Shown: positions 8,484-45,602 of the stretch, one piece after another
Position numbering within the stretch: the first letter of the stretch is position 1
How the letters are laid out: each line of letters opens with the position of its first letter
Assembly (NCBI GenBank): GCA_000004695.1
Contig: CM000154.2
Location: 2,080,001 to 2,144,000 of the forward strand
DNA: 64,000 nt
Reading direction: 5' to 3'
Source: Dictyostelium discoideum
Taxonomy: Eukaryota
Made by a program: the position numbers and the translations under genes
The notes under the pieces: generated by a model
What the model was told of the DNA's origin: nothing
The model's input: only the letters and a program-made list of their open reading frames with translations
The model's database searches: none

Positions 8484-9755
8484 TTAAAGTTTAAGAGCTT
8501 GAATTGGATTTGAAATTGTTCTACAAAAAGTTGAATCATCTTTACAACCAGGACATTTTAAATGATATTGATTAGAATGAATTGTTTTATTTGATTTTAA
8601 ATGAGTATTAACTAAATCAGCCATAGCAGAGATAATTAAAGGATCATCATTTAAAGATTCAGAACGTACTAATAATTTCATACCACATTTTTTAGCGAGA
8701 TGTTGTAATTCAATATCAATTTCTGATAAAGTTTCAATATGATCAGAAGTGAATGCAATTGGGATCACAATTGCATTACGACCTTTCTTTGCCAATTGTT
8801 CAATTACAAAACTTGTTTTTGGTGATAACCAAGGCAAGGGTCCAACTTTACTTTGCCATGCTAAAATATATTCCAATGGTTTACCAGTCTCTTCATCCCT
8901 AATGCCCAAACCATCCATAACTCTACAAACTGTCTCTGCGACTTCCTGTGGATATGGATCACCTTTTTCAACAGTCGACATTGGTAATGAGTGTGCTGAA
9001 AATACTAGTACTGGCTTATTATTATTATTATTATTATTAGCATCAACATCATCAATATCCAATTCCCTTAATTTACTATTAAATTGATTATATGCTTTTT
9101 TAATTTTATGAATAGTTGCATCAATGAAACCTTTATGATCTTGCCATCTGTCAATGACTGACCATTTAAATTTAGATTGCATTTGTTTTTCTTCCAAGGT
9201 TTTCCAAAGATTATTTAAACTTGACCCGGTGGTAGTGCAAGAGTATTGTGGGTATTGTGAGAATGCAACTACACGTTCGACATTATCGTTCTCCATTTGG
9301 TCTAATGTATCTGCTATTAATGGATCAGAATAACGAAATCCTATATAATGTTTATGGGGTGCTGTCTCTGGTGATATCTTATCCATCATCGATGAGAGCA
9401 ATTCACCTTGTTTCTCTGTCCATTTTCTAATTGGTGATCCGCCACCAATGGCTTCATATAACTTCATAACTGCATTACTTCTTCTCTTTGCAATTAATGT
9501 ACCAGTATACTTTTGAAATGGTAATTTAAATATCTCTTTATCTGTAAATAATCTTGTTAAAAATGGTTCAACTTCTTCTAATTTACTTGGTCCTCCTAAA
9601 TTTAACATTAAAATACCTGTTTTTATTTTAGGTTTTTCATTATTATTATTTATATTTATTGTTGTATTTTTATTATTATTAACAGTACAATATGATAATG
9701 ATTTATTATAAAATGTTTTTGAATTTATAGTTGAAATAATCTTTCTTGATATCAT
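8484..9755 (-). CDS. hemH: Ferrochelatase (protoheme ferro-lyase), 423 aa
   Basis: Diagnostic motifs LMLNLGGP, SQYPQYSCTTTGSS, FSAHSLP and AFTSDHIETL, plus a C-terminal CxxC...C cluster. Same length as human FECH. N-terminal presequence-like region with an N-rich insert. Single exon. Confidence 0.9.
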   Translation of the reverse strand: MISRKIISTINSKTFYNKSLSYCTVNNNKNTTININNNNEKPKIKTGILMLNLGGPSKLEEVEPFLTRLFTDKEIFKLPFQKYTGTLIAKRRSNAVMKLYEAIGGGSPIRKWTEKQGELLSSMMDKISPETAPHKHYIGFRYSDPLIADTLDQMENDNVERVVAFSQYPQYSCTTTGSSLNNLWKTLEEKQMQSKFKWSVIDRWQDHKGFIDATIHKIKKAYNQFNSKLRELDIDDVDANNNNNNNKPVLVFSAHSLPMSTVEKGDPYPQEVAETVCRVMDGLGIRDEETGKPLEYILAWQSKVGPLPWLSPKTSFVIEQLAKKGRNAIVIPIAFTSDHIETLSEIDIELQHLAKKCGMKLLVRSESLNDDPLIISAMADLVNTHLKSNKTIHSNQYHLKCPGCKDDSTFCRTISNPIQALKL

Positions 9756-10426
9756 AATTTTTAATAATTTTTTTTTTTTTTTTTTCCCACTATGTTGACT
9801 TTTTTTTATTTTTTTTATTTTTTTTTTTTTTTTTTTTTTTTGAATCCAGACTGAATAGTCGAGTATGAAATTTTTTTTTTTATTTTTTATTTTTTTTTTT
9901 TTATTTTTTTTTTTTTTTTTGAATTTTAAATTATTTTTTTCGTGTCTAATTTAAAAAAATCTTTTTTTATTTTATTTTTTTTATTTTGTAAGGTTAAGAT
10001 GTCACGCAATGATTCGTTTTTTTTTTTTTTTTTTTTTTGAAAAAAATAAATGTTAAAGAAATTTTTTTTTTTTTTATTTTATTTTTATTTTTATTTATTT
10101 TTTTTTTATTGATATTTGTAAGTGAATTTTCAATTGATTCTAACTTTCACAGATTGAACAAAAATAAAAAAAAAATTTATTTTTTGAAATTTTTTTTTTT
10201 TCTTTTTTTTTTTTTTTTACAATCAACTTTTAAAAATAAAAGTAAAAAATTCATTTTTAATTTTTTTCATTTTTTATTTTATTTTATTTAAAAAATATAT
10301 AACATCATCAAAAAATATATTTTTAATTAATTTTTAATTAATTTTTTTTAATTTTTTCAATTTTTTATTTTTTTAAAGGAAAATATAACGTAATCAATTT
10401 TATTTTTCAATTAATTTTTTAAAAAA
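9756..10426. promoter_or_regulatory. Shared divergent intergenic region between ferrochelatase and coproporphyrinogen oxidase
   Basis: A 670-bp AT-rich spacer between two head-to-head start codons. It holds a few GC-containing islands (cccactatgttgac near 9790; gaatccagactgaatagtcgagtatg at 9841-9866; gtcacgcaatgattcg at 9994-10009) that could be cis elements. Confidence 0.35.
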
Positions 10427-11425
10427 ATGACATCAACAAATGAACCAATTCCAACTGAAGAAGAAATTAAAAATGGATTTAAATTTATTCAAGATGAAAT
10501 TTGTAAATTTTTAATTACAACAACAGGTGGTCATCAACAATATAGTGAAGATAAATGGGATTATACTAAAGGTAGTGGTGGTGGTATTAGTAGAGTTTGG
10601 GAAGGAAAAGAAGAGGAAGGATTTTATTTAAACCAAGATTACCAATCACAAAACAACAAATGTGACAAAATTGAAAAAGGTGGTGTTAATTTCTCTTATA
10701 TCGTTGGTAGTAATTTACCATCAGCAGCAGCAACTCAATTTAAAATAGCACCAGATACCAAATACATTGCCACTGGTGTAAGTCTAGTCATCCACCCATA
10801 CAACCCAAATGTGCCAACCATTCATATGAATGTAAGATACTTTGAAGCTGGTGATGTTTGGTGGTTTGGTGGTGGTGTTGATTTGACACCAGTCTACCCA
10901 AAATTAGATCAAGTCGTTGAATTTCATTCAACATTGAAAAAAGTATGCGACCAATATGGCCAAGAGGAGAACAAAACCTCATACGCATTGGGTAAGGCAG
11001 AATGTGACAGTTATTTCTTCCTTCCACATAGAGGTGAAACCCGTGGCGTTGGTGGTTTATTTTTCGATCATCTTAAATCCGATAAAGCAAAGACTTGGAA
11101 GTTCATCTACCAATTAGGTTTATCATTCATCGATCTCTATAAACCATTCCTTGTTAATAATAGTTCAATCTCTTATGATAAAGTTCAAAGAGAATATCAA
11201 CTATATCGTCGTTCTCGTTATGTTGAATTCAATCTCCTCTTTGATCGTGGTACTAAATTTGGTATTCTCTCTGAAGGTCGTACTGAATCAATCCTTATGT
11301 CATTACCTGCAGTTTGTAAATGGAAATATAATTATAAACCAGAAGAAAATACTCCTGAAGCAAATTTATTAACTTTTTTGAGACCAAGAGATTGGTTAAA
11401 CGAAAATCAAGAAAATAAAAATTAA
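10427..11425 (+). CDS. hemF: Coproporphyrinogen III oxidase (aerobic), 332 aa
   Basis: Motifs WWFGGGVDLTPVYP, HRGETRGVGG and RRSRYVEFNLLFDRGTKFG are hallmarks of the HemF/CPOX family. Single exon. Confidence 0.9.
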   Translation: MTSTNEPIPTEEEIKNGFKFIQDEICKFLITTTGGHQQYSEDKWDYTKGSGGGISRVWEGKEEEGFYLNQDYQSQNNKCDKIEKGGVNFSYIVGSNLPSAAATQFKIAPDTKYIATGVSLVIHPYNPNVPTIHMNVRYFEAGDVWWFGGGVDLTPVYPKLDQVVEFHSTLKKVCDQYGQEENKTSYALGKAECDSYFFLPHRGETRGVGGLFFDHLKSDKAKTWKFIYQLGLSFIDLYKPFLVNNSSISYDKVQREYQLYRRSRYVEFNLLFDRGTKFGILSEGRTESILMSLPAVCKWKYNYKPEENTPEANLLTFLRPRDWLNENQENKN

Positions 11426-11690: not shown

Positions 11691-13291
11691 CTAACCACTT
11701 GTATGATTACATGGAACTAAACCTTTAACACCATTAAGTTCAGCATCATACCATTCACCATTTTGTTTGAAAACTGTAATCATATCACCTTTTTTAAATG
11801 ATAATTCAGTTGAATCTTGACCTTGGAAATCATAAAGTGCTTGAACACGTTTAGTTGTTGGTGCTGGTGCTGGTGTTGGTAATGGACGACCACTAGCCAT
11901 GGTTGTTGATCTAGGTTTGTTGAGAATAACACCTGAATTTGTAGCAGGTGTTGGTAATGGACGACCTGATCCACCATTGACTGGTGATGTATTAACTGTT
12001 GGTTTATGTAAATTGATAGATGGTTGTGGTTGAACGTGTGGTGAAGAGTAAGGAACTTCATCTTGTTGTTGTGGCGATGATTGATATTGTTGTGGTGGAT
12101 AATGTTGTTGTTGTGGTGATGGTACTCCATAACTTGGTTTCGATAAATTAACAGAGTTATTTGTAGTGGTTGTAGTGGTGGTAGTGGTTGAATAAGGTGA
12201 AGAGTCATATGATGATGATGAAGATGGTGAAGGAGTTGCAATAGTTGAAGCTCTTGGTCTTTGAGTTGGTGTGCTACCATTACTACTAAATTCCTTTGGA
12301 CTTGTAAAAACACTTGATGATCTAACATTTCTACTCATTGAACTTGATTCGACTGGTGTGATAGCTTGAGGGTGAGTTGTTGCTTCAAACTCATTAATAT
12401 GTTGCACTGATGCTAATGCACCTTGATATTCTGCTGCTGCTCTTGCAAAATATTCATTATTTCTATTTATAAAACATGCAAATGATGGATCGAATGCTAA
12501 TTTTCTATCATCAAATAATGCATACATATCTTTCATAATTTCATCACTTAATTCTTGATATGCTTCTTTTGTTTTTGTATGTTTATTTTCAGTCTAAATA
12601 AATAAATAAACCAACCAATAAATTAAAATAAAATTCATTTTATATGTAAATCAAATTTAAAAAAATCAAATAAAATCAAATAAAAAAATCAAACACACAT
12701 ACCTTTTGTAAACTTGATGCATCTTTACCTTTATTTGCTTTAATATTGTAATCTCTATAATATCTATCCATATCTAATCTTCTAAGATCCAATTCTTCAA
12801 GACGAGATCTAATATCTCTGAATTGTGATAAATAAACTCTTAATGGATCATGGTAGTAATTTTCTAAAATTTCTTCAATTCTAATTCTTTCTTGTTCAAG
12901 TGATGTTGATACCTCTTGATAAGCTTTAATTGCTGGGTCATTCTCATTAAGTGCTAATAAATCATGTGAAATTTCATTTTGTAAAATATTGATTTCTATT
13001 AATTTTTTAAAAAAATAAAAAAAAAAATAAAAAAAAAAAAATTAGTATTTCGTTTAAATTTTTTATATATTATGTGTATATTAAACACAAACCTTTTAAA
13101 GTTGCTTCATATTTATCAACATTTTTATTTAATCTTTTCATTAATTTAAAAAGGGTGAATAATTTTTCTTTTTCTGCAACAATTTTACTATCGACAGTAG
13201 TTTCTGCAGCACCAAATGATGCTAAAACCTTATGTTTAGTTCTTGCAAAATTTGTTTTTATTGAACCCCAAGATGTTTTTTCTTTTGACAT
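11691..13291 (-). CDS. BAR-domain plus C-terminal SH3 protein (amphiphysin/Rvs167-like), about 464 aa, 3 exons
   Basis: Exons on the minus strand: 13291..13093, 12995..12703, 12593..11691. Donors are gtttgtg and gtatgtg; acceptors are atag and ttag. Phases are consistent. The N-terminal BAR-like helix (...DPLRVYLSQFRDIRSRLEELDLRRLDMDRYYRDY) is followed by a P/S/Q-rich linker and the SH3 ALYDFQGQDSTELSFKKGDMITV...WYDAELNGVKGLVPCNH. Confidence 0.75.
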
Positions 13292-13654
13292 TTTTTTTTT
13301 TTCTTTTTTTTTTTATAAATTAATAGTTATTCTATTTACTATTATTTTATTATTGTTATTATTATTACTATTACAATATTATTTATTTGTTTTTTTTTAT
13401 TTTTTTTTTATTGTTATGTGGTTATAAGAATGTGAAAAGGTTATAAAAATTTAAATTAAAAAAAAAATTAAAAAAAATTAAAAAAAAAAAAAATTAAAAA
13501 AAATTAAATAAAAAAAAAAAAAAAAAATATTAATTCAAAAAAAATAAAATTAAAATAAAAAATAAAAAACAATATCTGAAATCTAAAACTGACATCGCCA
13601 TCTGAAACTCACTTTTTTCTTTTTTCTTGAAAATATTTTTTTTTTATTATTTTA

Positions 13655-13755
13655 TTACTTGAGGAGTCCTCCAATATTTGACAGGAAATCCTTTAAATTA
13701 TCTTCTTTATTTTGAATATTTTTACTTCCTGCTTGGGTGATTTTAACTTTTTTAC

Positions 13756-13831
<76 letters not shown>

Positions 13832-14704
13832 TGATTTAGAGGGAGTTGTAGATTTATTATTATTATTATTTTTATTATTGGAAATTGAATTATTATTATT
13901 ATTGGAAATTGAATTATTATTTTTATTTTTGGAAATTGAATTATTTTTATTGGAAATTGAATTATTTTCTTCATTTAAATTTTTCATATTATTTTGTCCA
14001 TTAATAGAATTGTTTTTTATATTATTTAAATTGTTTATATTACTATTATTATTATTATTTATTATTATTTCTTTTTCTTTTTTTATAAATTGTTTTCTTG
14101 AATTTCTTTTTGATAATGGTTCACCTTTAATTGGGTTTAATTTACAACATTGTAAACAAAATTGAATTAAAGCATTTGTGGGTTTCTTTGATTGATTTTG
14201 TTTTAATGAAGATTGTTGTTTAAGTTTTGAAGAGAGTGAATTAATTTCTAAATTTGTTGTAGAGATTAATGATTTTGATCTAATTGATAGGTCTGAACGT
14301 TTTACGATTCTAACTCTACAATTTACACCTGGTATTAAGAAAGTACCACAATTTTTACAATTTCTAGTTTCAATTTGATCTGGTACACCATTCATTTCAG
14401 CAATATTTGCAATCTCTCTAAATTTATACATATAATAACCACCTAATGATGGATTAATTGGTTGAGAACAATGTGATAATGACCAAAGATAATTTAAATT
14501 CTTTTCTTCAATTAATTCATCTTCTTCAACTTCTTTACTAACACTATTTACAAATTTTAATTTTTTACCACCATCTTTGACTTCAACTGCTTCTTGAAAT
14601 ATATTTTCATTATCATATAATTTTCTTTTTAATGAATTATTTTTATTATTGTTATAGTTATTATTATTTTGCATTATTACATTGTGGTTGTTGCTGTTAT
14701 TCAT
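13655..14704 (-). CDS. RNase P/MRP subunit Rpp21/Rpr2-like zinc-ribbon protein, 349 aa
   Basis: RNCKNCGTFLIPGVNCRVRIVKR ... IQFCLQCCKLNP gives the CxxC...CxxC arrangement typical of Rpr2/Rpp21. The C-terminal half is poly-N/S low complexity with (ATT)n at 13777-13830. Family call is moderate. Confidence 0.5.
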
Positions 14705-14857
14705 TGTAAAAAAATTTTTACGACTATGTTTTTAATTTTTTTTTTTTTTTTAATTTTTTTTTTTTTTTTCGCCAATGGGGTTTTTATTTTTATTTTTTTT
14801 CAATTTTTAATTTTTTAATTTTAATTAATTTCAAGTCATCAATACCATAGACACACA

Positions 14858-15286
14858 ATGACAAGAGTTAAGACAGTGATGACTAATGAAAACAATAAAT
14901 ATGATTTCATATTTAAAGGGATTAATTTAACAAAATCAATATTTATAGTTGGTTTAGTAATTAGATTAGTTTTAATTGTTTTCGCTGAATGGCAAGATGC
15001 AAATAGTAAGATATTTACCTTTAAGAAAATTAGATTCTTATCAATAAATAATAATAATTTAAAATTTTATTAATTTTTTTATTTTTTTTTTTTCAAAAAT
15101 TAAAGTGTTAGTAAAATATACAGATATTGATTATGTAGTATATACAGATGCATCAAGAGCTGTTGTAAATGGTTTATCACCATATGATAGATCAACATAT
15201 AGATATACACCATTATTGTAGGTTTTCAAATTATAATAGTAATAGGCAACAACAACAACAACAACAACCACAACAACAACAACAAC

Positions 15287-15352
<66 letters not shown>

Positions 15353-16650
15353 TATCATAAATTTAGATTATTAATATTGAAAAATTATGATTTATTATTT
15401 TTTTATAGGGCTTATTTATTAGTTCCAAATATTTTAATTCATCCAGCATTTGGTAAATTATTATTTGTAATTTGTGATATGATCATTGCATATCTTTTAA
15501 AAGGTATTCTTTTAGAAAGATTTCCAAAGATCACATCAAGAACATTATTGATTTGTTTAGCATCATGGTTATTAAATCCATTCTCAATCAATGTATCAAC
15601 AAGAGGTAATGCTGAATCTGTTATTGGTGCAATGGTTTTAGCATCTTTTTATTTCTTAACAAAAAAGAATTTAACTTTAGCTTCAATTTTGTATGTATAC
15701 CAAACCACTACCTCCTCCTCCTTTTAATTTATTTTTCATATATATAATACTAATGATAGTTTTTAAAAATAGTTATGGACTTTCAGTACATTTTAAAATT
15801 TATCCAATCATTTATTCAATTCCAATGTATTTATACATTGATGAAAACTTTTTCTCAAGAAAACCATCAGAATATACATCACTCAATAATAACTTTAAAA
15901 ATATTTTCAAAAACTTTTTTAATAAGAATAGATTAAAATTTTTCTTAATTTCTGCATTTACATTTATTTCATTAACTTTTATAATGTATTTAATGTATGT
16001 ATTATATTATAAACAACAATAATAATAATATTTGATAGTTATATTAATATATATTTTATTTATTTATTTATTTATTTAATTTTAGATATGGTTATATATT
16101 TTTATTTGAAACTTATTTATATCATGTAATTAGGGCAGATAATAGACATAATTTTTCAGTTTATTTTTATCAAATTTATTTGAATACGCCAATTGTTGAA
16201 ACAGTAGGTGATTTAGTTGGTAAGGTTAATGGAAGTAATATGATTGTTGCATTGGCATCATTTTTACCACAAGTTATATTATTATTAGCAATTACATTGG
16301 TTTATTTCAATGATTTAGAATTTTGTTTATTATTAGAGACAATTACATTTGTGGCTTTCAATAAAGTTTGTACCGTTCAATATTTCATTTGGTATTATTC
16401 AATCTTACCATTAGTTATACCAAGTAGTAGTTTAGGATTAGTTCAATACATTATTCTATTTGCAGTTTGGATGGGTTCACAAGGTTTATGGTTTTATTCT
16501 GCTTTTAATTTAGAATTTTTAGGTTTACAAACTTTTTGGAATATTTGGGTAGCTGGTTTATTATTTTTCATTGCAAATATTTATATTTTAGTAAAATTAA
16601 TTTTAAATCATAATCCAATTAAAGTTAATCAATATTTAAAATCAAAATAA
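14858..16650 (+). CDS. pigM: GPI mannosyltransferase I (PIG-M), about 442 aa, 5 exons
   Basis: Exons 14858..15005, 15106..15217, 15409..15690, 15773..15994, 16086..16650. Donors are gtaaga, gtaggt, gtatgt, gtatgt. The spliced product aligns with human PIGM throughout ([80 protein letters not shown]). Confidence 0.85.
15246..15349. repeat. (CAA)n followed by (AAT)n microsatellite inside PIG-M intron 2
   Basis: A pure trinucleotide run visible in the sequence. The (ATT/AAT)n encodes poly-I in the minus-strand ORF track and is not a real gene. Confidence 0.9.
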
Positions 16651-16746
16651 AATTAAATTAATAATAATAATAAAAATATTTTTTTAAAAAATTTGAATAA
16701 ATAAATTGTTTTTTATTTTTTTTTTTAATTTGTTTTATTATTATTA

Positions 16747-17280
16747 TTATTGTGGTGTTATAGTTGGTGGTGATGGTGTTGAAATTGATTCAATTATTGT
16801 TGTTGTTATTGGTGGTGGTGGTGGTATTATTGTTGATTCAAAATCAGTTGACTGTTTTTGGTTATTTAATTTTTTTAAATTCTTTTTTCTAATAATATAC
16901 CAAGATAAAGAGATAGCGGTAAATAATGCTAATAGACCAACTAAAAATCCAACAGCTGAAAGTATTAATTTATTATTATTTGTTGGTTCAGGTGGTACAA
17001 CACAAGTTAAATTTGTATTTATATATGGTTGATCATTTGAAATGATTTTATAATCAGTTGGATTGAATGAAATTGATTGATTAAAGTATGGAATTCTTAA
17101 AATTACATTCACTGTGCTATTTCCATGAGTTACTGATTTCTTTAAAATTTTAATTGTTCTAATATTATTATCAATTTTAATCTTATTAATAAATTGAACA
17201 TATAATGAAACATAATCATTTGTAGTTAAATACCAAATAATTTCGGTTGAATTTAATTTTTTTGAATTTAAATAATTATA

Positions 17281-17340
<60 letters not shown>

Positions 17341-20300
17341 TGAATTTGTATTTGAATTGTTATTGTTATTATTATCTTTTTCAAAAACCCAAGGAGTTTG
17401 ACTAAATCTAGTGAATGAAGTTGTACGACATAATGGTCTTGATTTATCTTTAATAATATTTGTACTTTCCATAACAATATCTAAGTAATTTGTACGTTCT
17501 TGGAATGGCCAGTCATTAATATTTATTAATAATCTTATACTACCATATTCTAATGGTAAATATTTTGAATTATAATTTTTAAAATTTTCATTATTGCTTT
17601 GATTTCTCAATGACAATGGTTCAACAAATACTAAGGTAATCTTTGCATAATTGAATAAGATACTAGTATAGTTTTTAATTATACCGAAATCCGGATCAAT
17701 AATAGTTTCACCGACTTTCCAATCAGCTTGAATTGATAAATCTACCTTTTCAACTATTTCACCATCAAATGTATATTCAATTAAATTCTTTATACCAAAT
17801 AAGAAGATTGTACCATTATCAGTTTTAATTTTTTGTAATGGATCATTTGTATTGAAATCTTGAATTAATGGTTTCTTTGGCTCACTTGATACATTATCAT
17901 TGGGAGAGTTTAATAAAACTGGAACATTACAATTTGGACCTGACCAACCTTGATTACAAACACATTGACCAAATTGACATTGACCATGATTTGAACAAGT
18001 TGTTAATGCATCACAATTATAGTATTTATCATCTAAATCATAATAAAAAAATATTAAATCTTTTGATGTTAAATTATTTACTGTAACCCAAATTAATTTT
18101 TCAATATCAATTTCATCAATATCAATCATATCGTTTGAATTTGTTGTTGTTGTTGTTGAAGAAGAAGAAGAAGATGATGATGATGATGATATTGAACTGT
18201 TATTATTATTATTATTATTAATTACAGATGGCGGTAATAAACATTTAATTGTTGTATCAAATTTTAATAATTGTAAATTTAAACATTGAATTGGTTTTTT
18301 ATCTTGTTTATCTTTTAATATTACTGAAATTAGTGATGTATCATTACCAAAGTTATTACCATATATTGTGATATAACCACCCATTTTAAAACCAACGGTT
18401 GTATAATTTTCAATGAATGGTTCTTGATATTGAAATACTAGTGAATCTGTTGACAATTCGTCATTAACAATTAATGAAAGAGGTAAATTTGAACCTGATC
18501 CTCTTTCAATATCAATTGAAAATATATTTCTTTTAATTGATTTAATTGGTACGATTTTATTATTAATTGATATGATTACACTATCGGATTGAGTGAAATT
18601 CTTATAATAGTTTACATTCAATTTAATAATTCCACCCAAAGTTGGAGATTTTTCAATTGATTTTATAAATGGTATTGATAATTTATCAACAATCTTTTTA
18701 ATACTATTATCATATAATTGAATAGATAATGATAAACCATTATAATTTATTCCACTTTCTAAAATACAACTAATCATACTATTACCATTGGTTTGGTTAA
18801 ATTCCATTGTCATATTATTACATTTCAAATAGTCACTACCACTACCACTACCACCACCACCAACTACTACTGATTTAAATATATTTGTAAAATCTAAATT
18901 TGAGGTTTCAACTCTCATTGATAATAATCCTTTAATTGTTGAACTTAATTTTATATTTGAAAATGTTGGGGATTTAATACAACTATCATTATAATAAATA
19001 TAATCAATTTCACATTTACATCTATAAGATCCATATAAATTCTCACAAATACTATTAAGTGGACATTGTATTGATGTTGTTGTTGCATCTTCTGTTGGTG
19101 GCTTCATTAATAAACATTCATCTATATCAACACAATTTGAATTTAAATATTTAAAACCATCTTTACAATCACAAGCACCTGTTTCTTTATTACAAATAAA
19201 AGTTTCATTTTGTTGATTTATTGATGTACTAGTAATATTTAAACATGTTGCTGAATTCACTGATTGATATTTCATAAAACCTTGATTACAGTTACATTTA
19301 AATGAACCAATTGAATTAACACATGTTGAGAATTTTGAATCACATGGTTTCTTTGTTAAACATTCATTCTCGTCAATACAAATACCAGTATTATTATCAA
19401 TAAAACCTTCTTTACATTTACAAATATTATTTGAACAAAAATTATTTGGTAATTCTGAACAATCATTATCAATTTCACATGCTATAAAAAATTAAATTAA
19501 AATTAGATTATGCATGTATATTTTTTTTTTTTTTTTTTCCTTTTTTTTTTAAAAATAAATAAATTATAATTACATTTTAAATTACAATTTTCACCATTCC
19601 AATTTGAATGACATTCGCATTTTGAATTAATACAATCACCATGTTGACAAATTATTGAACAAGTATCAGGAAATGTAATTTTTGAACCTAAATCAATCGA
19701 TTGATCATATATTTCAGTTGATGGACATTTACTATTTGGTGTTAATGATAATATATTGGTGAAATCTTCTAGATCATGTTCTGGACACATATAATTATAC
19801 AATTTTGAAATTGGTGGATAATAATAATCATATGAAATATATTGACATGGTGATTGATTTTCTAAATAGAAATATTCATATTTTATAATATCATTATCAC
19901 ATAAGTACCTTTTTTGAGTTTCAAATAAATCAATAGTTTGTGTTTTAAAAATTGATAAATATTTCATATCACCACCATTAATTATTAGATTCTTACATGT
20001 TTCTTCATCACTCTCTGGATATCTTGGTAAAAAATTTAAAAATGTACTTTGATCACCTTCATTTATTTTTGGAAATGTAATATTTGAAAAATCTTCAATT
20101 GGATTCTTTAAAACACTTAAAATTGATTTTTTGTTTGTTGATGTATTTTTAAAATTACACTTAAAAAAAAAAGGTGAAAAAAAAAAAAGGTAAAAAAAAA
20201 AGGTAAAAAAATAAAAAAATTAATGAGTTGTTTCTTTTTTTTTTACCACACCGATTTAATTTTTTGAATCTTTTTTTTTTAAAAAAAAAATAAAAATAAA

Positions 20301-23494: not shown

Positions 23495-25057
23495 ATGAAT
23501 AATGACAAATTATTTTTTAAAATTTGGAGAAATCAATATTTAAGATTTATAATTACTAAATTTAGAATATTATATGAAAAGAATAAAAAAGTGAAATTCC
23601 TAGATTATAGAGATTTTAAAAGATATAAAGAAAAGGAATTCGTTTTAGAAATTGATTACCAAGGTAATCAATTATTAAAGGATGGTGATTTAAGCGAGTA
23701 TCCAATGGTTAGGATTATAAATTTAAAGGATGGAATTTTTAATAATGTTTCATCAAGTATCTTTGAAAATACATTAATTGAAAAAATTAAATTTCCACCA
23801 TATAGATATAATGCTCCTCCACTATTAACCGATATCAATAAATTACCAAATACTGTGAATTCAATTAAACAATTCCCATATGATTTAAAAATACCAATAC
23901 CAAAATCAATTAAAAAAATTACAATTTCAAGTAATTATTATTTTATAAGAGATTTCTCTTTAGTAAATTATTTAAAATTTTCAGAGAATGAAAATATTAC
24001 CAATTTAAAAATAATTCCAACGTGGAGGGCAAATAGTGATTCAATTTTAATTCAAAATTTATTTCCAAAGAATCTTAAAACTTTGGATTTAGGTAGTTAT
24101 AGTCAAATTTTAAATGAAAATGTTTTACCAACTTCATTAGAGAAATTAGTATTCTCAAGTGGTTATTCAATGACATTTTACTCTAATAAGCTATTATCAT
24201 TAATTAATTTAACTCATTTATCACTTTCACATCAAAATGTTTTACTTGAACCAAATTCAATACCACCTAATGTCACTTTTCTTTCAATTGCAAATCTTGG
24301 TAACCCAGTAGTTGATAATTCAATAATACCAAGAAATTTAAAAACTTTAATAATCAACCCAGCTTTTAGACCTGACTATAAAGGTGTTTCAATCTTATAT
24401 GATACATTTCCAAATTCATTAACAGAGTTAAAATGTGAAGGTTTTAAATTAGCTTCAATACCAAAAATATTTAAAAATGATGATAATTGCTTTTTTCCAA
24501 AATCAATTAAATCATTATCAATTGGTTCAAATTTTAGTGATGGTTTTAAACCTGGTTTTTTTTTTCCTTTAAAACCACCAGCATCATCATCATCATCATC
24601 ATTATGTAATATTACATCAATTACATTTGGATATTATTTCAATGAAATTATATTACCAAATATTTTACCTAAATCATTAACATTTTTAAAATTTGGTACA
24701 AACTATAATCAACCTTTTTTAAAAGATTCAATTCCACCAGGTTGTGAATTAAAGGAATTAATATTTGGTGATTATTTTAATCGATTAGTTGATCATACAA
24801 CAATTCCAATTAAAAGTTTACAAGTTTTAAGATTTGGTTCAAATTTTAAAGTCCCATTAGAATCAATTGGTTTTAATAAATTTGAATCTTTGAAAACCTT
24901 TGAATTGGACTCTAAAAAATATCCATATCATATTGATTTAAAATCACTTGAATTTCCAAAATCATTTGAAACTTTAATTTTAAATAGAATTTTTAAATTT
25001 AGTTCTAATATTATTTTAAATCAAGATTGTATTAAAAATATAATTTATAAAAAATAA
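23495..25057 (+). CDS. FNIP-repeat-containing protein, 520 aa
   Basis: Tandem repeats of about 22 aa of the form IPxxVTxLxFGxxFNQPL (IPPNVTFLSIANLGNPV, IPRNLKTLIINPAFRPD, LPKSLTFLKFGTNYNQPF). This is the Dictyostelium FNIP repeat family pattern. Confidence 0.7.
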   Translation: MNNDKLFFKIWRNQYLRFIITKFRILYEKNKKVKFLDYRDFKRYKEKEFVLEIDYQGNQLLKDGDLSEYPMVRIINLKDGIFNNVSSSIFENTLIEKIKFPPYRYNAPPLLTDINKLPNTVNSIKQFPYDLKIPIPKSIKKITISSNYYFIRDFSLVNYLKFSENENITNLKIIPTWRANSDSILIQNLFPKNLKTLDLGSYSQILNENVLPTSLEKLVFSSGYSMTFYSNKLLSLINLTHLSLSHQNVLLEPNSIPPNVTFLSIANLGNPVVDNSIIPRNLKTLIINPAFRPDYKGVSILYDTFPNSLTELKCEGFKLASIPKIFKNDDNCFFPKSIKSLSIGSNFSDGFKPGFFFPLKPPASSSSSSLCNITSITFGYYFNEIILPNILPKSLTFLKFGTNYNQPFLKDSIPPGCELKELIFGDYFNRLVDHTTIPIKSLQVLRFGSNFKVPLESIGFNKFESLKTFELDSKKYPYHIDLKSLEFPKSFETLILNRIFKFSSNIILNQDCIKNIIYKK

Positions 25058-26065: not shown

Positions 26066-27862
26066 TTATTTACAATTTGTTCTTATTATTAAATTATTAA
26101 TTGTTAAATTATCAATTTCAATTATTGACATTGGTTTACCCCATGGATCACCCAATATTAAATCAATATTTGTTAAATTTTCATTAATATCTATTGACTG
26201 AATTGGGGAATCTGGAAATAAATCACAATAAACTTTTAAATGTACAATTGATTTTGGTAATGATCTAAATAATAGTGTGAATGAATCTTCATATTCTTCA
26301 TTTAATAATGTTAATTCTAAATTTTTTAAACTTGGACAATCAATTAATTTTAAAATCTCTAATTTATAATCACCTTTAATAACTAAACTTTTAAATTTAT
26401 TATTAATTGGTAAATTATTTAAATCAATTTCATTTAATAAATTATTAATTGTATAATTTTCAATGTTATTATTATCATTATCTTCATATGAATCATTATC
26501 ATCATTATCATTATCATTTACAATTAAAAAACCATTTAATTGTTTTAAATTTTTAAAATGATTTTTTAATAATTTTTTTGAAATTGGATAAAATTGATTT
26601 TGATTATTATTTTTTAAAATTTCCAATGATGATGGTAATAATGATAGATTGAATGATGATGAATCCATTAGATTTGGATTAAAATATAATTCTTTTAAAT
26701 TTGGTAATTTTGAAGGTACTTTGATTTGAATACCTAAATCTAATATTTTAATAGTATCTGGTAAATCATTTGATAATAATTTTGAATTAAAAAATCTTGT
26801 TGAAAGGAATTCTCTACTAAAAAATATCAATTTTTCAATTGTTTGAGGAATTTTACCATTAATACCATTTGAAATTTCATTAATAATTGTTAACTCTTTT
26901 ATTGATTTTGGCCAAATTGTTGGTAAATTTTCAATTTTACTTGCAATTATTAATTTATTAATTTCATTTAAATTTTCAATATTAATTTCATTTTCTTCTT
27001 CATCTTCATCTTCTTTATTATTATTATTTTCCAAATCTTTAAAATATGAAAATATATTTTTTGATTTTATTAATTCTGTACCAATATAAATTAAAGAATT
27101 TGAATTTATATTTTTAAATAAATTTATATTTTTATGAATATTATCTAAATGATACCAAGGTAAATGAATCAATTCTAATGAGTTTGGGATTGGACCATTA
27201 ATTGTACCATTATAATTTGAACCTAATATTAAAGTTTTTAAACCCATTGGTAAATTATAATTAAATTCTAAATATTTATTCCATTTACTACCAAATTGAA
27301 TATGTAAAAGTGTTGATGGTAAAACGAATGGTTTTATCTCTTGATCAAATGAATAACAAAATTTTAAATATTTTATAGTTGGTACAATAAACCCAATTGG
27401 TATAACTTGATTAAATCTACCACCAAATACTAATCTAACAACTGATTTTGGAATTATTAATTTCGATTTATTATTACCACTATTTGTTGGTAATTTATCC
27501 ATTATAGTTAAATTATTAATTGTATCTGGTAATGATTGATCACCATCATCATTATTATTTGAATATTCTCTTAATGTTAATCTTGTTATGTATGGTGGCA
27601 ATATCTTTTTTAAAGGATAATTAAATTCACCAACTAATGCAATCACTGTAATATAAGACCAATATGGATAATTCAAAAGAGAATCTTGTTCAAAATAAAT
27701 ATATTTTGTTAAATAATAAACATTACCAAATAATCTAGCATGTTTCCAAATGTTTTTTAATAAATATTTATTTTTATAAACTTTCCAAAATAATTTTTCA
27801 TTATTTTCATCATAATTATTATTATCAATAAAATGATTAATTTTTAATTTTTTATTTAACAT
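26066..27862 (-). CDS. FNIP-repeat-containing protein, 598 aa
   Basis: Repeats LPPYITRLTL, IPKSVVRLVFGGRFNQVI, LPSTLLHIQFGSKWNKYL, LPMGLKTLILGSNYNGTI. Acidic (DEDEEENE) and poly-N inserts. Confidence 0.7.
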   Translation of the reverse strand: MLNKKLKINHFIDNNNYDENNEKLFWKVYKNKYLLKNIWKHARLFGNVYYLTKYIYFEQDSLLNYPYWSYITVIALVGEFNYPLKKILPPYITRLTLREYSNNNDDGDQSLPDTINNLTIMDKLPTNSGNNKSKLIIPKSVVRLVFGGRFNQVIPIGFIVPTIKYLKFCYSFDQEIKPFVLPSTLLHIQFGSKWNKYLEFNYNLPMGLKTLILGSNYNGTINGPIPNSLELIHLPWYHLDNIHKNINLFKNINSNSLIYIGTELIKSKNIFSYFKDLENNNNKEDEDEEENEINIENLNEINKLIIASKIENLPTIWPKSIKELTIINEISNGINGKIPQTIEKLIFFSREFLSTRFFNSKLLSNDLPDTIKILDLGIQIKVPSKLPNLKELYFNPNLMDSSSFNLSLLPSSLEILKNNNQNQFYPISKKLLKNHFKNLKQLNGFLIVNDNDNDDNDSYEDNDNNNIENYTINNLLNEIDLNNLPINNKFKSLVIKGDYKLEILKLIDCPSLKNLELTLLNEEYEDSFTLLFRSLPKSIVHLKVYCDLFPDSPIQSIDINENLTNIDLILGDPWGKPMSIIEIDNLTINNLIIRTNCK

Positions 27863-28748: not shown

Positions 28749-29813
28749 ATGAATACTCAACAACGTGCTATGGAAGGTGATCTTTCCAGAATTGTTGCCA
28801 TCTCTCGTAAAGAAAAAGATGCCGTCTCTCGTAACGATAAAGTCGATGATACTTTAAATGGTTACAAAGAACTCTTCAAAGGTAACGATGACAAAGCCAT
28901 CCAAGCCCGTAAGAACAATTACACCCATATGGTCAACACTTTCTACGATTTAGCCACTGATTTCTATGAATTTGGTTGGGGTCAATCTTTCCATTTTGCC
29001 ACTCGTCATAAGTATGAATCATTCGAAGCCTCAATTGCTCGTCACGAAATGTACATGGCCCATCAACTTGGTCTCTTCCCAGGTATGAAAGTCATCGATA
29101 TCGGTTGTGGTGTTGGTGGTCCAATGAGAACCATTGCCCGTTTCTCTGGTGCCAACGTTGTCGGTCTCAACAACAACGAATACCAAATCCAACGTGGTAA
29201 ACGTTTAAATGAAAGTGCTGGTCTCTCCCACTTATGTTCATTCATCAAAGCCGATTTCATGCACGTCCCAGTCGAAGATAACACCTACGATTGTGCCTAC
29301 CAAATCGAAGCCACTTGTCACGCCCCAGATCTCGTTGGTCTCTACAAGGAAGTCTTCCGTATCGTTAAACCAGGCGGTTTATTCGGTGGTTATGAATGGA
29401 TTATGACCAACAAATTCAACCCAGAAGACCCAGTTGAAGTCAACATCAAAAAACAAATTGAATTAGGTAATGGTCTCCCAGATCTTGTCAAACCAGCTGA
29501 AATCATCAATGCTGCCAAAGCTGCTGGTTTCGAAGTTATCACTGCTTTCGATGTTGCTGAAACCTCTGAACTCCCATGGTACTTACCATTATCAAGTGGT
29601 GTCTCTATCACTGGTTTCCTCCACACTGGTGTCGGTCGTTACTTAACTGGTAAATTCACTCAACTCTTGGAAATTGTCAAATTAGCTCCAGCTGGTTCAT
29701 ACAACACCAACGTTTGGTTACAAAATGCTGCTACCTTCTTAGTCCAAGGTGGTGAAAAACAAATTTTCTCCCCAATGTTCTTCTTATTATGTCGTAAACC
29801 AAGCACTGATTAA
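28749..29813 (+). CDS. smt1: Sterol 24-C-methyltransferase (ERG6/SMT1 family), 354 aa
   Basis: [18 protein letters not shown], the SAM-binding [11 protein letters not shown], and YEWIMT motifs. Codon usage is markedly GC-richer than its neighbours, consistent with high expression. Single exon. Confidence 0.9.
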
Positions 29814-44477: not shown

Positions 44478-45149
44478 TTATTGAACATTAATTGTTGTTG
44501 ATTTAACATAACTATTTTTTGGAATACTAATTTCTAAAATACCATTATTCATAATAGCTTTAATTAAAGAAACATCAATATCTTCAGGTAATTTAATTGA
44601 TTTTTTAAATTCCATTAATGATTGATGTTGTGATTCTACTTGTTGATTATTTGATGATGGTTGTTGAATGGTTGTATTTTTATTTAAAGCATCAATATTT
44701 AATAAACCATTTGAAAAATCAATTTTAACATTTTCTTTTGAAAAACCTGGTAATTCTACTCTAATTTCAATTCCTTTATCAGATTCATTAATAAAGGTTT
44801 TTGGTGATCTAAATCCGCGAGTTTTTGAAAATTCATGTTCCCAATTATCAAAAATACTCTCAAATTTATCCATATATTGTTGACCACCATGACTATAATA
44901 GAAATGTCTAAAACATTCATTAAACTTATCGATTTTCTTTGAGAAACGATCTTCAAATTTAACTTGGAAAAAATATGGTTTGTTTGAATAATCATTAGTT
45001 TCACAAATACCTGATGATTGGGATGTTGATAATGTTGATGCTGTTGGTCTACCAAAATTACTTAAATTTGATTCTGGATAACCTCCTCTTCTACCACAGA
45101 GAAAAGCACGACGAAAGAAAAATGGTGTAGTTTTTGAAAGTTTATACAT
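44478..45149 (-). CDS. Small heat-shock protein of the HSP20/alpha-crystallin family, about 223 aa
   Basis: C-terminal alpha-crystallin domain (IEIRVELPGFSKENVKIDFSNGLLNI...IKLPEDIDVSLIKAIMNNGILEISIPK). The true start is MYKLSKTTPFFF at 45149. The upstream part of the listed ORF is poly-K and poly-A junk. Confidence 0.8.
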   Translation of the reverse strand: MYKLSKTTPFFFRRAFLCGRRGGYPESNLSNFGRPTASTLSTSQSSGICETNDYSNKPYFFQVKFEDRFSKKIDKFNECFRHFYYSHGGQQYMDKFESIFDNWEHEFSKTRGFRSPKTFINESDKGIEIRVELPGFSKENVKIDFSNGLLNIDALNKNTTIQQPSSNNQQVESQHQSLMEFKKSIKLPEDIDVSLIKAIMNNGILEISIPKNSYVKSTTINVQ

Positions 45150-45264
45150 TTTTTTGTTTTGTTTTTTTTTTAAAAAAAAAAATATTGAAAAATAATTATT
45201 ATTATTATTATTTGAATGATGGAAATAAAATATGAATATAAAAAATAAAAAAAAATATTTATAT

Positions 45265-45303
<39 letters not shown>

Positions 45304-45602
45304 TAAAAATAAAAAAAAAACATATAAATGTAATTATTATGTTTAATTTTTCATTTAATTGATGATATTATTATTACATATTAATATAATATTTTAAAAT
45401 AATATGAAAATACAATAAAAAAATAAAATTAAAAATTCATAAAAATAAAAATTCAAAAAAAAAAAACAACAAATTTTGATGTGTTTATTTTAACACCCAA
45501 ATTTGTAAATTTTAAATACTGCGACATTTATTTTCTTTTTTTTGTATAGGGTCTCAAAAACTATTTTTAGATATTATATCAATACAAAATAATTATGTAT
45601 AT

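What the first reader, a model, noticed from the sequence alone, without database searches (positions are those of the whole stretch)
8484..11425. Two heme-biosynthesis enzymes (ferrochelatase and coproporphyrinogen oxidase) are arranged head-to-head on one 670-bp intergenic region
The ferrochelatase CDS starts at 9755 on the minus strand and the coproporphyrinogen III oxidase CDS starts at 10427 on the plus strand. These are the terminal step and the third-from-last step of the same pathway, and they are divergently transcribed from one short AT-rich spacer. The spacer holds a few conspicuous GC-containing islands (gaatccagactgaatagtcgagtatg at 9841-9866; gtcacgcaatgattcg at 9994-10009). For a eukaryote this is a compact, operon-like pairing of pathway genes, and it suggests a bidirectional co-regulated promoter.
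Basis: partly seen in the sequence, partly recalled or inferred. Interest (0 to 1): 0.5.

Follow-up and report, generated by a model that had tools for sequence, protein, structure and literature searches.

The report
Conserved head-to-head heme gene pair
In the social amoeba Dictyostelium discoideum, two heme-synthesis genes (coproporphyrinogen oxidase and ferrochelatase) sit back-to-back on one 671-bp spacer, and this arrangement is kept in every social-amoeba genome examined while the surrounding genes are reshuffled, which argues that the pairing is under selection, probably through shared or interleaved promoters, although co-regulation itself has not been tested.

Summary
Window 8484-9755(-) encodes a full-length ferrochelatase of the mitochondrial [2Fe-2S] type. 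Window 10427-11425(+) encodes an oxygen-dependent coproporphyrinogen III oxidase. The start codons are 671 bp apart and the spacer is 10.4% GC. The source is D. discoideum AX4 (hemH = DDB_G0288891).

The head-to-head pair is present in all 10 dictyostelid genomes inspected, covering groups 1-4 and the P. violaceum complex. An eleventh species, Synstelium, has consecutive gene numbers for the two genes. CPOX's outer neighbour takes 5 different states and FECH's takes 7. The amoebozoan outgroup Balamuthia has no FECH within 10 kb of CPOX.

Spacer sequence is not alignable between groups. Within the D. discoideum species complex, two blocks of 27 and 32 nt are perfectly conserved (P about 0.0008 under a neutral model), and four neighbouring intergenic regions show almost nothing comparable.

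The spacer is not short for this genome. The arrangement is not operon-like. GC islands are ordinary in Dictyostelium promoters. Co-expression, TSS positions and shared elements could not be tested.

Verdict: a real, selectively maintained divergent pathway-gene pair. It is a new member of a known kind and of moderate interest.

The parts
8484..9755 (-). Ferrochelatase CDS (hemH, DDB_G0288891), 423 aa, single exon. It has an N-terminal extension of about 44 aa (presumed mitochondrial presequence), a poly-Asn insertion, and C-terminal Cys residues aligned to the human [2Fe-2S] ligands.
   Evidence: PF00762, E=7e-107; human FECH, E=2.5e-105, with alignment; named DDB_G0288891.
10427..11425 (+). 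Oxygen-dependent coproporphyrinogen III oxidase CDS (hemF/cpox; XP_636472.1, UniProt Q54IA7), 332 aa, single exon, with no N-terminal extension.
   Evidence: (PF01218, E=4.5e-104).
9756..10426 (.). Divergent intergenic spacer of 671 bp at 10.4% GC. The + strand is T-rich throughout. It must hold both promoters and both 5'UTRs. No gene, tRNA or known RNA family is detected inside it.
   Evidence: (no gene called).
9786..9798 (.). Block 'a', CCCACTATGTTGA, 30 nt upstream of the FECH ATG. It is conserved in D. discoideum and D. dimigraforme and matches 11/13 in D. cf. discoideum. It probably lies in the FECH 5'UTR or core promoter. It resembles the DUSE element but is an inexact match.
9842..9867 (.). 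It has the highest local GC in the spacer (11/26) but is only weakly conserved, matching 14/26 in the closest species.
9990..10016 (.). It is 27 nt, identical in D. discoideum, D. cf. discoideum and D. citrinum, and is followed by a T-run of about 23 nt. It is a candidate central cis-element, 234 nt from the FECH ATG and 410 nt from the CPOX ATG.
10110..10158 (.). Block B2/B2b, TGATATTTGTAAGTGAATTTTCAATTGATTCT(AACTTTCACAGATTGAA). The first 32 nt are identical in three species and largely kept in D. dimigraforme. It contains a CAATTG palindrome and a GTAAGT...CTAAC...CAG string. It is a candidate cis-element, and no splicing evidence was found.
10298..10315 (+). Block B1, TATAACATCATCAAAAAA, 111 nt upstream of the CPOX ATG and identical in four species of the D. 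discoideum complex. ATAACATCATCA recurs in P. violaceum 102 nt upstream of its CPOX ATG in the same orientation. It is a candidate CPOX-proximal promoter element.
10381..10407 (+). Block 'f', AAATATAACGTAATCAATTTTATTTTT, 19 nt upstream of the CPOX ATG and conserved only in D. cf. discoideum. It probably lies in the CPOX 5'UTR.

Best explanation
CPOX (hemF) and FECH (hemH) form a selectively maintained head-to-head gene pair. It arose no later than the last common ancestor of the sampled Dictyostelia. The two genes are transcribed separately in opposite directions from one promoter-bearing spacer. The regulatory regions of the two genes overlap or share elements, so any rearrangement breakpoint or insertion between them would damage the expression of at least one essential heme gene. 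Keeping both on one control region probably also couples the output of the O2-requiring antepenultimate step to that of the iron-inserting terminal step. What is shown: the enzyme identities, the arrangement, its phylogenetic persistence against reshuffled flanks, and purifying selection on discrete spacer blocks in the D. discoideum complex. What is inferred: that the blocks are transcription-factor or core-promoter sites, that they serve both genes, and that the two mRNAs are co-regulated.
For: (1) Both enzyme identities are secure. (2) The divergent adjacency was confirmed by tblastn/blastp in D. discoideum (two assemblies), D. cf. discoideum, D. citrinum, D. dimigraforme, D. purpureum, P. 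violaceum, T. lacteum, H. album, A. subglobosum and C. fasciculata. In Synstelium polycarpum the two genes carry consecutive gene numbers, 3737 and 3738. (3) Internal control: CPOX's outer neighbour has 5 different states and FECH's has 7. That implies at least 10 events in the two flanking intergenic regions and none in the central one, which is the longest of the three in D. discoideum (665 against 260 and 238 bp). The probability is (2/3)^10 = 0.017 with equal weights and lower if weighted by length. (4) In T. lacteum only 185 bp separate the two ATGs, and in H. album and A. subglobosum about 370 bp, so the promoter regions must physically overlap there. (5) Within the D. discoideum complex the spacer carries perfect blocks of 27 and 32 nt, and 96 nt in blocks overall among three species. 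Four neighbouring intergenic regions have none, or a single 11-nt block. Three-way identity at 4-fold degenerate sites is 0.736, which gives P = 0.0008 for two or more such runs. (6) The blocks are unique in the 64-kb window and have no RNA-structure or Rfam signal, which fits DNA-level elements. (7) Balamuthia has no FECH within 10 kb of CPOX, so the pairing is not a general amoebozoan feature. (8) Two genes of one 8-step pathway being head-to-head neighbours by chance has a probability of roughly 28 x 2/12,500 x 1/4, about 0.001 (my calculation, using a gene number recalled from the published genome).
Against: No expression, TSS or reporter data could be obtained. No k-mer is shared by 5 or more of 7 lineages, and no pairwise spacer alignment between groups exceeds non-orthologous controls, so there is no deep motif to point to. 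In D. discoideum, divergent neighbours are not generally co-expressed: the median correlation is about 0.03-0.08 in the lncRNA study PMC5295588. Divergent pairs are preferentially conserved in eukaryotes in general (PMC2871058), so persistence alone does not prove shared elements. PPOX, the step between the two enzymes, is not in the 64-kb window, which weakens a simple flux-coupling argument. The flank-versus-centre statistic is modest, and some flank changes may be gene gains rather than breakpoints.
Confidence: 0.6

Rival explanations
1. The promoters are independent but interleaved. The two genes are regulated separately. The pair persists only because any break inside a compact divergent spacer would detach one essential gene from its own upstream elements. 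The shared pathway is a coincidence that drew the reader's attention.
For: Divergent pairs are generally better conserved than convergent ones (PMC2871058). Neighbour co-expression is weak in D. discoideum (PMC5295588). The conserved blocks are spread along the spacer, with B1 and 'f' close to CPOX and block 'a' close to FECH, as expected for gene-specific elements. No deep shared motif was found.
Against: This reading needs a chance coincidence of about 0.1% that the neighbour belongs to the same 8-gene pathway. In D. discoideum, D. purpureum, P. violaceum and C. fasciculata the spacer is 665-794 bp, long enough for a break that leaves both proximal promoters intact, yet none has occurred. 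The strongest blocks, B2 and B3, lie centrally, 234-410 nt from either ATG.
Confidence: 0.25
2. Neutral persistence. The adjacency has simply not yet been hit by a rearrangement, and the conserved blocks in close relatives reflect low divergence.
For: The spacer is under 1 kb, so it is a small target. The flank-versus-centre test gives only P of about 0.02 with equal weights. Perfect blocks were scored only among closely related species whose 4-fold site identity is 0.75-0.87.
Against: Both immediately adjacent intergenic regions, which are shorter in D. discoideum, were hit repeatedly, at least 10 times. The arrangement is retained across all major dictyostelid groups, between which almost no other gene in the 20-kb loci is shared. 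Two perfect runs of 27 nt or more have P = 0.0008 under the measured neutral identity, and four control intergenic regions lack them.
Confidence: 0.08
3. A hidden functional element in the spacer is what is conserved, and it incidentally glues the two genes together. Candidates are a small ncRNA, a uORF, or a 5'UTR exon and intron. Examples are the DUSE-like TCCCACTA at 9785-9792 lying about 55 nt before island 1, the ATG in B3 that opens MSRNDS(F)n, and the GTAAGT...CTAAC...CAG string in B2.
For: There are conserved non-homopolymer blocks with T-runs after them. The DUSE-like and splice-like strings can be read directly in the sequence. DUSE sits about 60 nt upstream of ncRNA genes in dictyostelids (PMC7919456).
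Against: No Rfam hit has an E-value below 5 and there is no tRNA. There is no exact DUSE in the spacer. No fold is better than shuffles, with z from -0.95 to +1.45. The Logan contigs are colinear with the genome, so they give no evidence of splicing. Island 1 is poorly conserved even in the nearest species. The blocks are absent outside the D. discoideum complex, although the adjacency is universal.
Confidence: 0.05

Closest known systems
Evolutionarily conserved divergent ('bidirectional-promoter') gene pairs with related function, such as HSPD1/HSPE1 (Hsp60/Hsp10) and ribosomal protein L13/S16 (PMC2871058). Histone H2A-H2B and yeast GAL1-GAL10 are further examples from general knowledge.
   Same: Head-to-head orientation, less than 1 kb between the genes, products that act in one process, and an arrangement retained across deep phylogenetic distances while the surroundings change.
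   Different: Here co-expression and shared elements have not been demonstrated. The partners are non-consecutive steps of a metabolic pathway (steps 6 and 8 of 8) that probably act in different compartments, with CPOX lacking a presequence and FECH carrying one. The pairing appears restricted to Dictyostelia.
Ferrochelatase sharing a bidirectional promoter with an unrelated gene in Trichoderma reesei (tku70/ferrochelatase/dmm2 cluster, PMC8966179).
   Same: A eukaryotic ferrochelatase gene sits in a divergent pair with a short shared promoter region.
   Different: The partner there is a DNA-repair gene, not a heme enzyme. I saw this paper only as a search hit and did not read it in detail.
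Bacterial hem operons, and the hemF/hemG/hemH set that trypanosomatids acquired by horizontal transfer (PMC4413820).
   Same: The late heme-pathway genes are treated as a functional unit in evolution.
   Different: Operons are co-directional and polycistronic, whereas this pair is divergent and monocistronic. Dictyostelid FECH is of the eukaryotic [2Fe-2S] type, and its closest relatives are eukaryotes and Myxococcales. Joint transfer of the pair from one bacterium is therefore not supported.
Eukaryotic metabolic gene clusters in fungi and plants.
   Same: Non-homologous genes of one pathway are physically linked.
   Different: There are only two genes and they belong to primary metabolism. 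No further heme genes occur among the ORFs of 220 aa or more in the 64-kb window.

Membership tests
Ferrochelatase (PF00762), eukaryotic mitochondrial [2Fe-2S] class | Full-length match to the ferrochelatase profile | tested here: met
   E=7e-107, profile positions 1-316 of 317. E=2.5e-105 to human FECH over residues 42-411.
Ferrochelatase (PF00762), eukaryotic mitochondrial [2Fe-2S] class | Catalytic His motif (human H263, 'SAHSLP') and the four cluster cysteines (human C196, C403, C406, C411; numbering from general knowledge) | tested here: met
   The alignment shows query 'fsAHSLPms' opposite human 'fsAHSLPms', 'QYPQYSCtTTGSS' opposite 'QYPQYSCsTTGSS', and C-terminal 'lkCpgCkddstfC' opposite 'lsCplCvnp--vC'.
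Ferrochelatase (PF00762), eukaryotic mitochondrial [2Fe-2S] class | N-terminal mitochondrial presequence | tested here: inconclusive
   There is an extension of about 44 aa rich in S, T, N and K before the domain. No targeting predictor was available.
Oxygen-dependent coproporphyrinogen III oxidase HemF/CPOX (PF01218) | Full-length match to the profile and to solved CPOX structures | tested here: met
   E=4.5e-104, profile positions 2-295 of 295. E=1e-72 to 4e-67 against Leishmania, bacterial and human CPOX.
Conserved bidirectional-promoter gene pair | Head-to-head orientation with less than 1 kb between the genes and nothing in between | tested here: met
   671 bp separate the ATGs. No gene is called in the NCBI annotation of the locus. 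There is no tRNA or Rfam family. The only ORF in the spacer is low-complexity.
Conserved bidirectional-promoter gene pair | Arrangement conserved across species beyond the local synteny | tested here: met
   Ten dictyostelid genomes keep the pair, and both flanks vary. The pair is absent in Balamuthia.
   The Logan contigs end in homopolymer runs and carry no TSS information. The ATG-to-ATG distance bounds the TSS distance to less than 671 bp in D. discoideum and less than 185 bp in T. lacteum.
Conserved bidirectional-promoter gene pair | Correlated expression of the two genes | not testable with these tools
   No expression table was retrievable.
Conserved bidirectional-promoter gene pair | Cis-elements required by both genes | tested here: inconclusive
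   Selected blocks exist in the D. discoideum complex. They are not detectable across groups, and their function is untested.
Operon / polycistronic unit ('operon-like') | Genes on the same strand, co-transcribed | tested here: not met
   The genes are on opposite strands and diverge from each other.
Metabolic gene cluster | Three or more pathway genes linked | tested here: not met
   Only two heme genes are present. The other ORFs of 220 aa or more in the 64-kb window are unrelated. Smaller or multi-exon genes were not exhaustively scanned.

The most novel reading that the evidence does not exclude
The CPOX-FECH spacer is an ancient, dictyostelid-wide bidirectional control module, several hundred million years old. 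It would couple the O2-dependent and the Fe-dependent late steps of heme synthesis to one signal such as oxygen, iron or heme status, through rapidly turning-over binding sites. In the D. discoideum complex these sites would be the B2 (CAATTG-containing) and B3 (TCACGCAAT, bZIP/C-EBP-like) elements. If so, it would be a rare example of a conserved two-gene primary-metabolism 'regulon on one promoter' in a eukaryote, and a handle on the still unknown regulation of heme synthesis in Amoebozoa.
Probability: 0.3. Interest if true: 0.6.

Novelty: new member of a known kind. Interest (0 to 1): 0.42.

Why it matters
Gene order in dictyostelids is heavily scrambled between groups, so an adjacency that survives in every sampled lineage and joins two enzymes of one pathway is a strong pointer to functional linkage. 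It gives a concrete and small experimental target. The spacer ranges from 185 to 794 bp, and in D. discoideum it holds three or four defined conserved blocks. This can be used to find out how heme synthesis is regulated in Amoebozoa, which is essentially unknown. It can also be used to study how bidirectional promoters are maintained while their sequence turns over completely. It does not change any general concept, because conserved divergent pairs of related genes are a known phenomenon.

Tried and rejected
(1) ncRNA in the spacer. Rfam in E-value mode over 9600-10600 gave only two chance-level hits at E of about 5.5. There are no tRNAs. No exact DUSE occurs in the spacer, and the six matches elsewhere in the window are below chance expectation. 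Folding the three blocks on both strands gave nothing better than shuffles. Rejected as the main explanation.

(2) 5'UTR intron suggested by GTAAGT...CTAAC...CAG in block B2. Five Logan contigs carrying CPOX are all colinear with the genome and end in homopolymers, so there is no support. They may be DNA-derived, so the idea is not excluded.

(3) TSS from the Logan contigs for FECH. These were uninformative.

(4) Deep motif conservation. Sharing of 7-, 8- and 9-mers among 7 lineages was compared with non-orthologous intergenic controls. Only a microsatellite-like ACATCATCA reached 4 of 7 lineages, with P of about 0.013 before multiple-testing correction and inconsistent orientation. GC-weighted local alignments of all 21 spacer pairs did not exceed controls. 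A by-eye D. discoideum/P. violaceum similarity (CATTGCGT...ATCTTAACC) was therefore dropped.

(5) Expression data. A search for DDB_G0288891 found nothing. The supplements of PMC5097433, PMC13011474 and PMC2864575 held nothing usable.

(6) A published synteny baseline. Heidel et al. 2011 is not held in the library.

(7) A larger heme cluster. Pfam scans of the other large ORFs found none.

(8) Joint horizontal transfer of the pair. The best non-dictyostelid CPOX hits are bacterial (Hydrogenedentes, about 55% identity), but the best FECH hits are eukaryotes and Myxococcales. This is not supported, and no phylogeny was built.

(9) A second outgroup such as Physarum or Acanthamoeba. The context look-ups were exhausted.
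Full report
OBSERVATION. Pfam assigns the first to Ferrochelatase (PF00762, E=7e-107, profile 1-316 of 317). It assigns the second to Coproporphyrinogen III oxidase (PF01218, E=4.5e-104, profile 2-295 of 295). Against solved structures, the first protein matches human mitochondrial ferrochelatase (E=2.5e-105). That alignment covers the AHSLP catalytic motif, the QYSC cysteine and the C-terminal cysteines that bind the [2Fe-2S] cluster in the human enzyme. The second protein matches Leishmania, bacterial, human and yeast CPOX (E=1e-72 to 1e-52).

FECH has an N-terminal extension of about 44 aa before the domain. CPOX has none. I infer that FECH is mitochondrial and that CPOX is probably cytosolic, as in yeast.

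The spacer is 9756-10426, which is 671 bp at 10.4% GC. G/C bases are clustered well beyond a shuffle expectation, with 4 islands against 0.37 expected. The density of 6 per kb is nevertheless ordinary for D. discoideum intergenic DNA. The spacer is also not short for this genome. The two other divergent spacers in the same 21-kb locus are 153 and 325 bp.

SOURCE. An exact-sequence look-up places both proteins on D. discoideum chromosome record CM142511.1 and names them DDB_G0288891 (hemH) and XP_636472.1/Q54IA7 (CPOX).

THE KEY TEST: CONSERVATION OF THE ARRANGEMENT. I retrieved the genomic context of the FECH orthologue in nine further genomes. These were D. cf. discoideum, D. citrinum, D. dimigraforme, D. 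purpureum, Polysphondylium violaceum, Tieghemostelium lacteum, Heterostelium album, Acytostelium subglobosum and Cavenderia fasciculata. Together they represent all four classical dictyostelid groups plus the violaceum complex.

In every genome a CPOX gene lies immediately upstream on the opposite strand. This was confirmed by tblastn. For C. fasciculata no Pfam record existed, so I confirmed it by BLASTP (61% identity, E=4e-150). ATG-to-ATG distances are 604-713 bp in the D. discoideum complex, 769 bp in D. purpureum, 794 bp in P. violaceum, 185 bp in T. lacteum, 372 bp in H. album, 366 bp in A. subglobosum and 665 bp in C. fasciculata.

In the EukProt proteome of Synstelium polycarpum the two orthologues are proteins P003737 and P003738 (genes 3737 and 3738). 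They are therefore consecutive, although their orientation is unknown. In the amoebozoan outgroup Balamuthia mandrillaris, no FECH lies within 10 kb either side of CPOX.

INTERNAL CONTROL. An all-against-all ORF comparison of the loci shows that CPOX-FECH is the only adjacency common to all of them. CPOX's other neighbour differs as follows:
- a BAR-SH3 gene in the D. discoideum complex and P. violaceum
- a metallophosphatase in D. purpureum
- an unrelated 396-aa gene in T. lacteum
- CTU2 in H. album and A. subglobosum
- a 740-aa gene in C. fasciculata

FECH's other neighbour differs in essentially every lineage, with 7 states. That makes at least 10 events in the two flanking intergenic regions and none in the central one. 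In D. discoideum the central spacer is the longest of the three. With equal weights the probability is (2/3)^10 = 0.017, and it is smaller if weighted by length. This is my own rough calculation, and some flank events may be gene gains. A published genome-wide baseline could not be retrieved. A paper on dictyostelid ncRNAs reports no strong inter-group shared synteny around its loci (PMC7919456).

WHAT IS IN THE SPACER. There is no gene call, tRNA or Rfam family. Between dictyostelid groups the spacer sequences are not alignable above non-orthologous controls, and no k-mer is shared by 5 or more of 7 lineages.

Within the D. discoideum species complex, discrete blocks are conserved:
- B2 (10110-10141), 32 nt, identical in three species and largely kept in a fourth
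- B1 (10298-10315), identical in four species
- block a (9786-9798)

The core of B1, ATAACATCATCA, recurs in P. violaceum in the same orientation and about 100 nt from the CPOX ATG.

Four neighbouring intergenic regions of the same species have none, or a single 11-nt block. Three-way identity at 4-fold degenerate sites of the two CDSs is 0.736. Two or more perfect runs of 27 nt or longer in 665 neutral sites then have P = 0.0008, which is conservative because indels are ignored.

The blocks are unique in the window and show no RNA-folding signal on either strand. They are best read as DNA-level promoter or factor-binding elements.

MECHANISM. The best-supported reading is a selectively maintained divergent pair whose regulatory regions overlap or are shared. 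In T. lacteum the two ATGs are only 185 bp apart, so overlap is physically unavoidable there. I estimate that two genes of one eight-step pathway are head-to-head neighbours by chance with a probability of about 0.001, using a recalled figure of about 12,500 genes. Universal retention against scrambled flanks comes on top of that. Together these favour selection on the linkage, and the obvious benefit is co-ordinated transcription.

This last step is an inference. No expression, TSS or reporter evidence could be obtained. Divergent neighbours are not generally co-expressed in D. discoideum (PMC5295588). Divergent pairs are also conserved preferentially in eukaryotes for generic reasons (PMC2871058). 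The main rival is therefore 'independent but interleaved promoters'. Neutral persistence and a hidden transcript in the spacer are minor rivals.

COMPARISON WITH WHAT IS KNOWN. The closest known kind is the conserved bidirectional pair of functionally related genes, such as Hsp60/Hsp10 and L13/S16 (PMC2871058). Of the defining features, orientation, distance, absence of an intervening gene and cross-species conservation were tested and met. Co-expression, TSS spacing and shared elements were not testable or were inconclusive. The arrangement is not an operon, because the genes are on opposite strands. It is not a metabolic gene cluster, because there are only two genes and no other heme enzyme among the large ORFs of the window. 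Full-text searches found no paper describing a CPOX/FECH divergent pair in any organism. The adjacency itself is visible in the public D. discoideum annotation.

VERDICT. This is a new member of a known kind and of moderate interest.

Noticed in passing
window 10427-11425 (CPOX) versus 8484-9755 (FECH): CPOX has no N-terminal extension, since the Pfam domain starts at residue 14. FECH has about 44 extra N-terminal residues. The two paired enzymes therefore probably act in different compartments, with CPOX cytosolic as in yeast and FECH mitochondrial.
   Followed up: partly
window 10427-11425; The best non-dictyostelid matches of the CPOX are bacterial, from Candidatus Hydrogenedentes and metagenomes (about 55% identity, about 300 aa). 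They rank above the amoebozoan Balamuthia CPOX at 51%. The FECH's best matches are eukaryotes and Myxococcales. This may point to different evolutionary origins for the two partners. No phylogeny was built.
   Followed up: no
window about 9015-9059 (-), FECH residues about 233-247: A poly-Asn/Asp insertion (DIDDVDANNNNNNNKP) sits in a surface loop relative to human ferrochelatase. This is a typical Dictyostelium homopolymer tract inside a conserved enzyme.
   Followed up: no
window about 11691-16700 and loci L005, L010-L012: A five-gene block (mannosyltransferase/PIG-U-like, Rpr2 RNase P subunit, BAR-SH3, CPOX, FECH) is syntenic between the D. discoideum complex and P. violaceum. It is not syntenic in D. 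purpureum, which is nominally closer to D. discoideum. This indicates a lineage-specific rearrangement at the 3' end of CPOX in D. purpureum.
   Followed up: partly
window about 13292-13654 (L001 6113-6475): The only conserved block in the control intergenic regions is TAACCACATAA, upstream of the BAR-SH3 gene. It is identical in four species of the D. discoideum complex.
   Followed up: no
L007 (Heterostelium album) about 9910-9987: The stretch just upstream of the H. album FECH ATG reads ...AGCA|GTAAGT...TTTGTTTATAG|AATCAATCATATA-ATG. This looks like a 5'UTR intron of about 75 nt. There is also a TTCAATTGAT string resembling D. discoideum block B2.
   Followed up: no
window 9756-10400: The + strand is T-rich across almost the whole spacer, with AT skew running from -0.55 to -0.20. 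There is no switch of skew in the middle, as two mirror-image promoters might be expected to produce.
   Followed up: no
window 9990-10040: Block B3 contains an ATG (AAGATGTCACGCAATGATTCG) that runs into the following T-run. It would encode MSRNDS followed by poly-Phe if it were transcribed in the CPOX direction, so it is a possible uORF. Its core TCACGCAAT resembles a bZIP (C/EBP-CRE-like) half-site pair.
   Followed up: partly
window 23495-25057(+), 26066-27862(-), 28749-29813(+), 44478-45323(-), 16747-19275(-), 60862-62715(+): Other genes in the window are two FNIP-repeat proteins, a sterol C-methyltransferase, an Hsp20-family protein and two EGF/ComC-type proteins. None is related to heme synthesis.
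   Followed up: partly
L013 (Balamuthia mandrillaris) 9260-9607(-): In Balamuthia, CPOX is also in a head-to-head pair with 393 bp between the genes, but the partner is an uncharacterised 115-aa protein with no Pfam hit.
   Followed up: no
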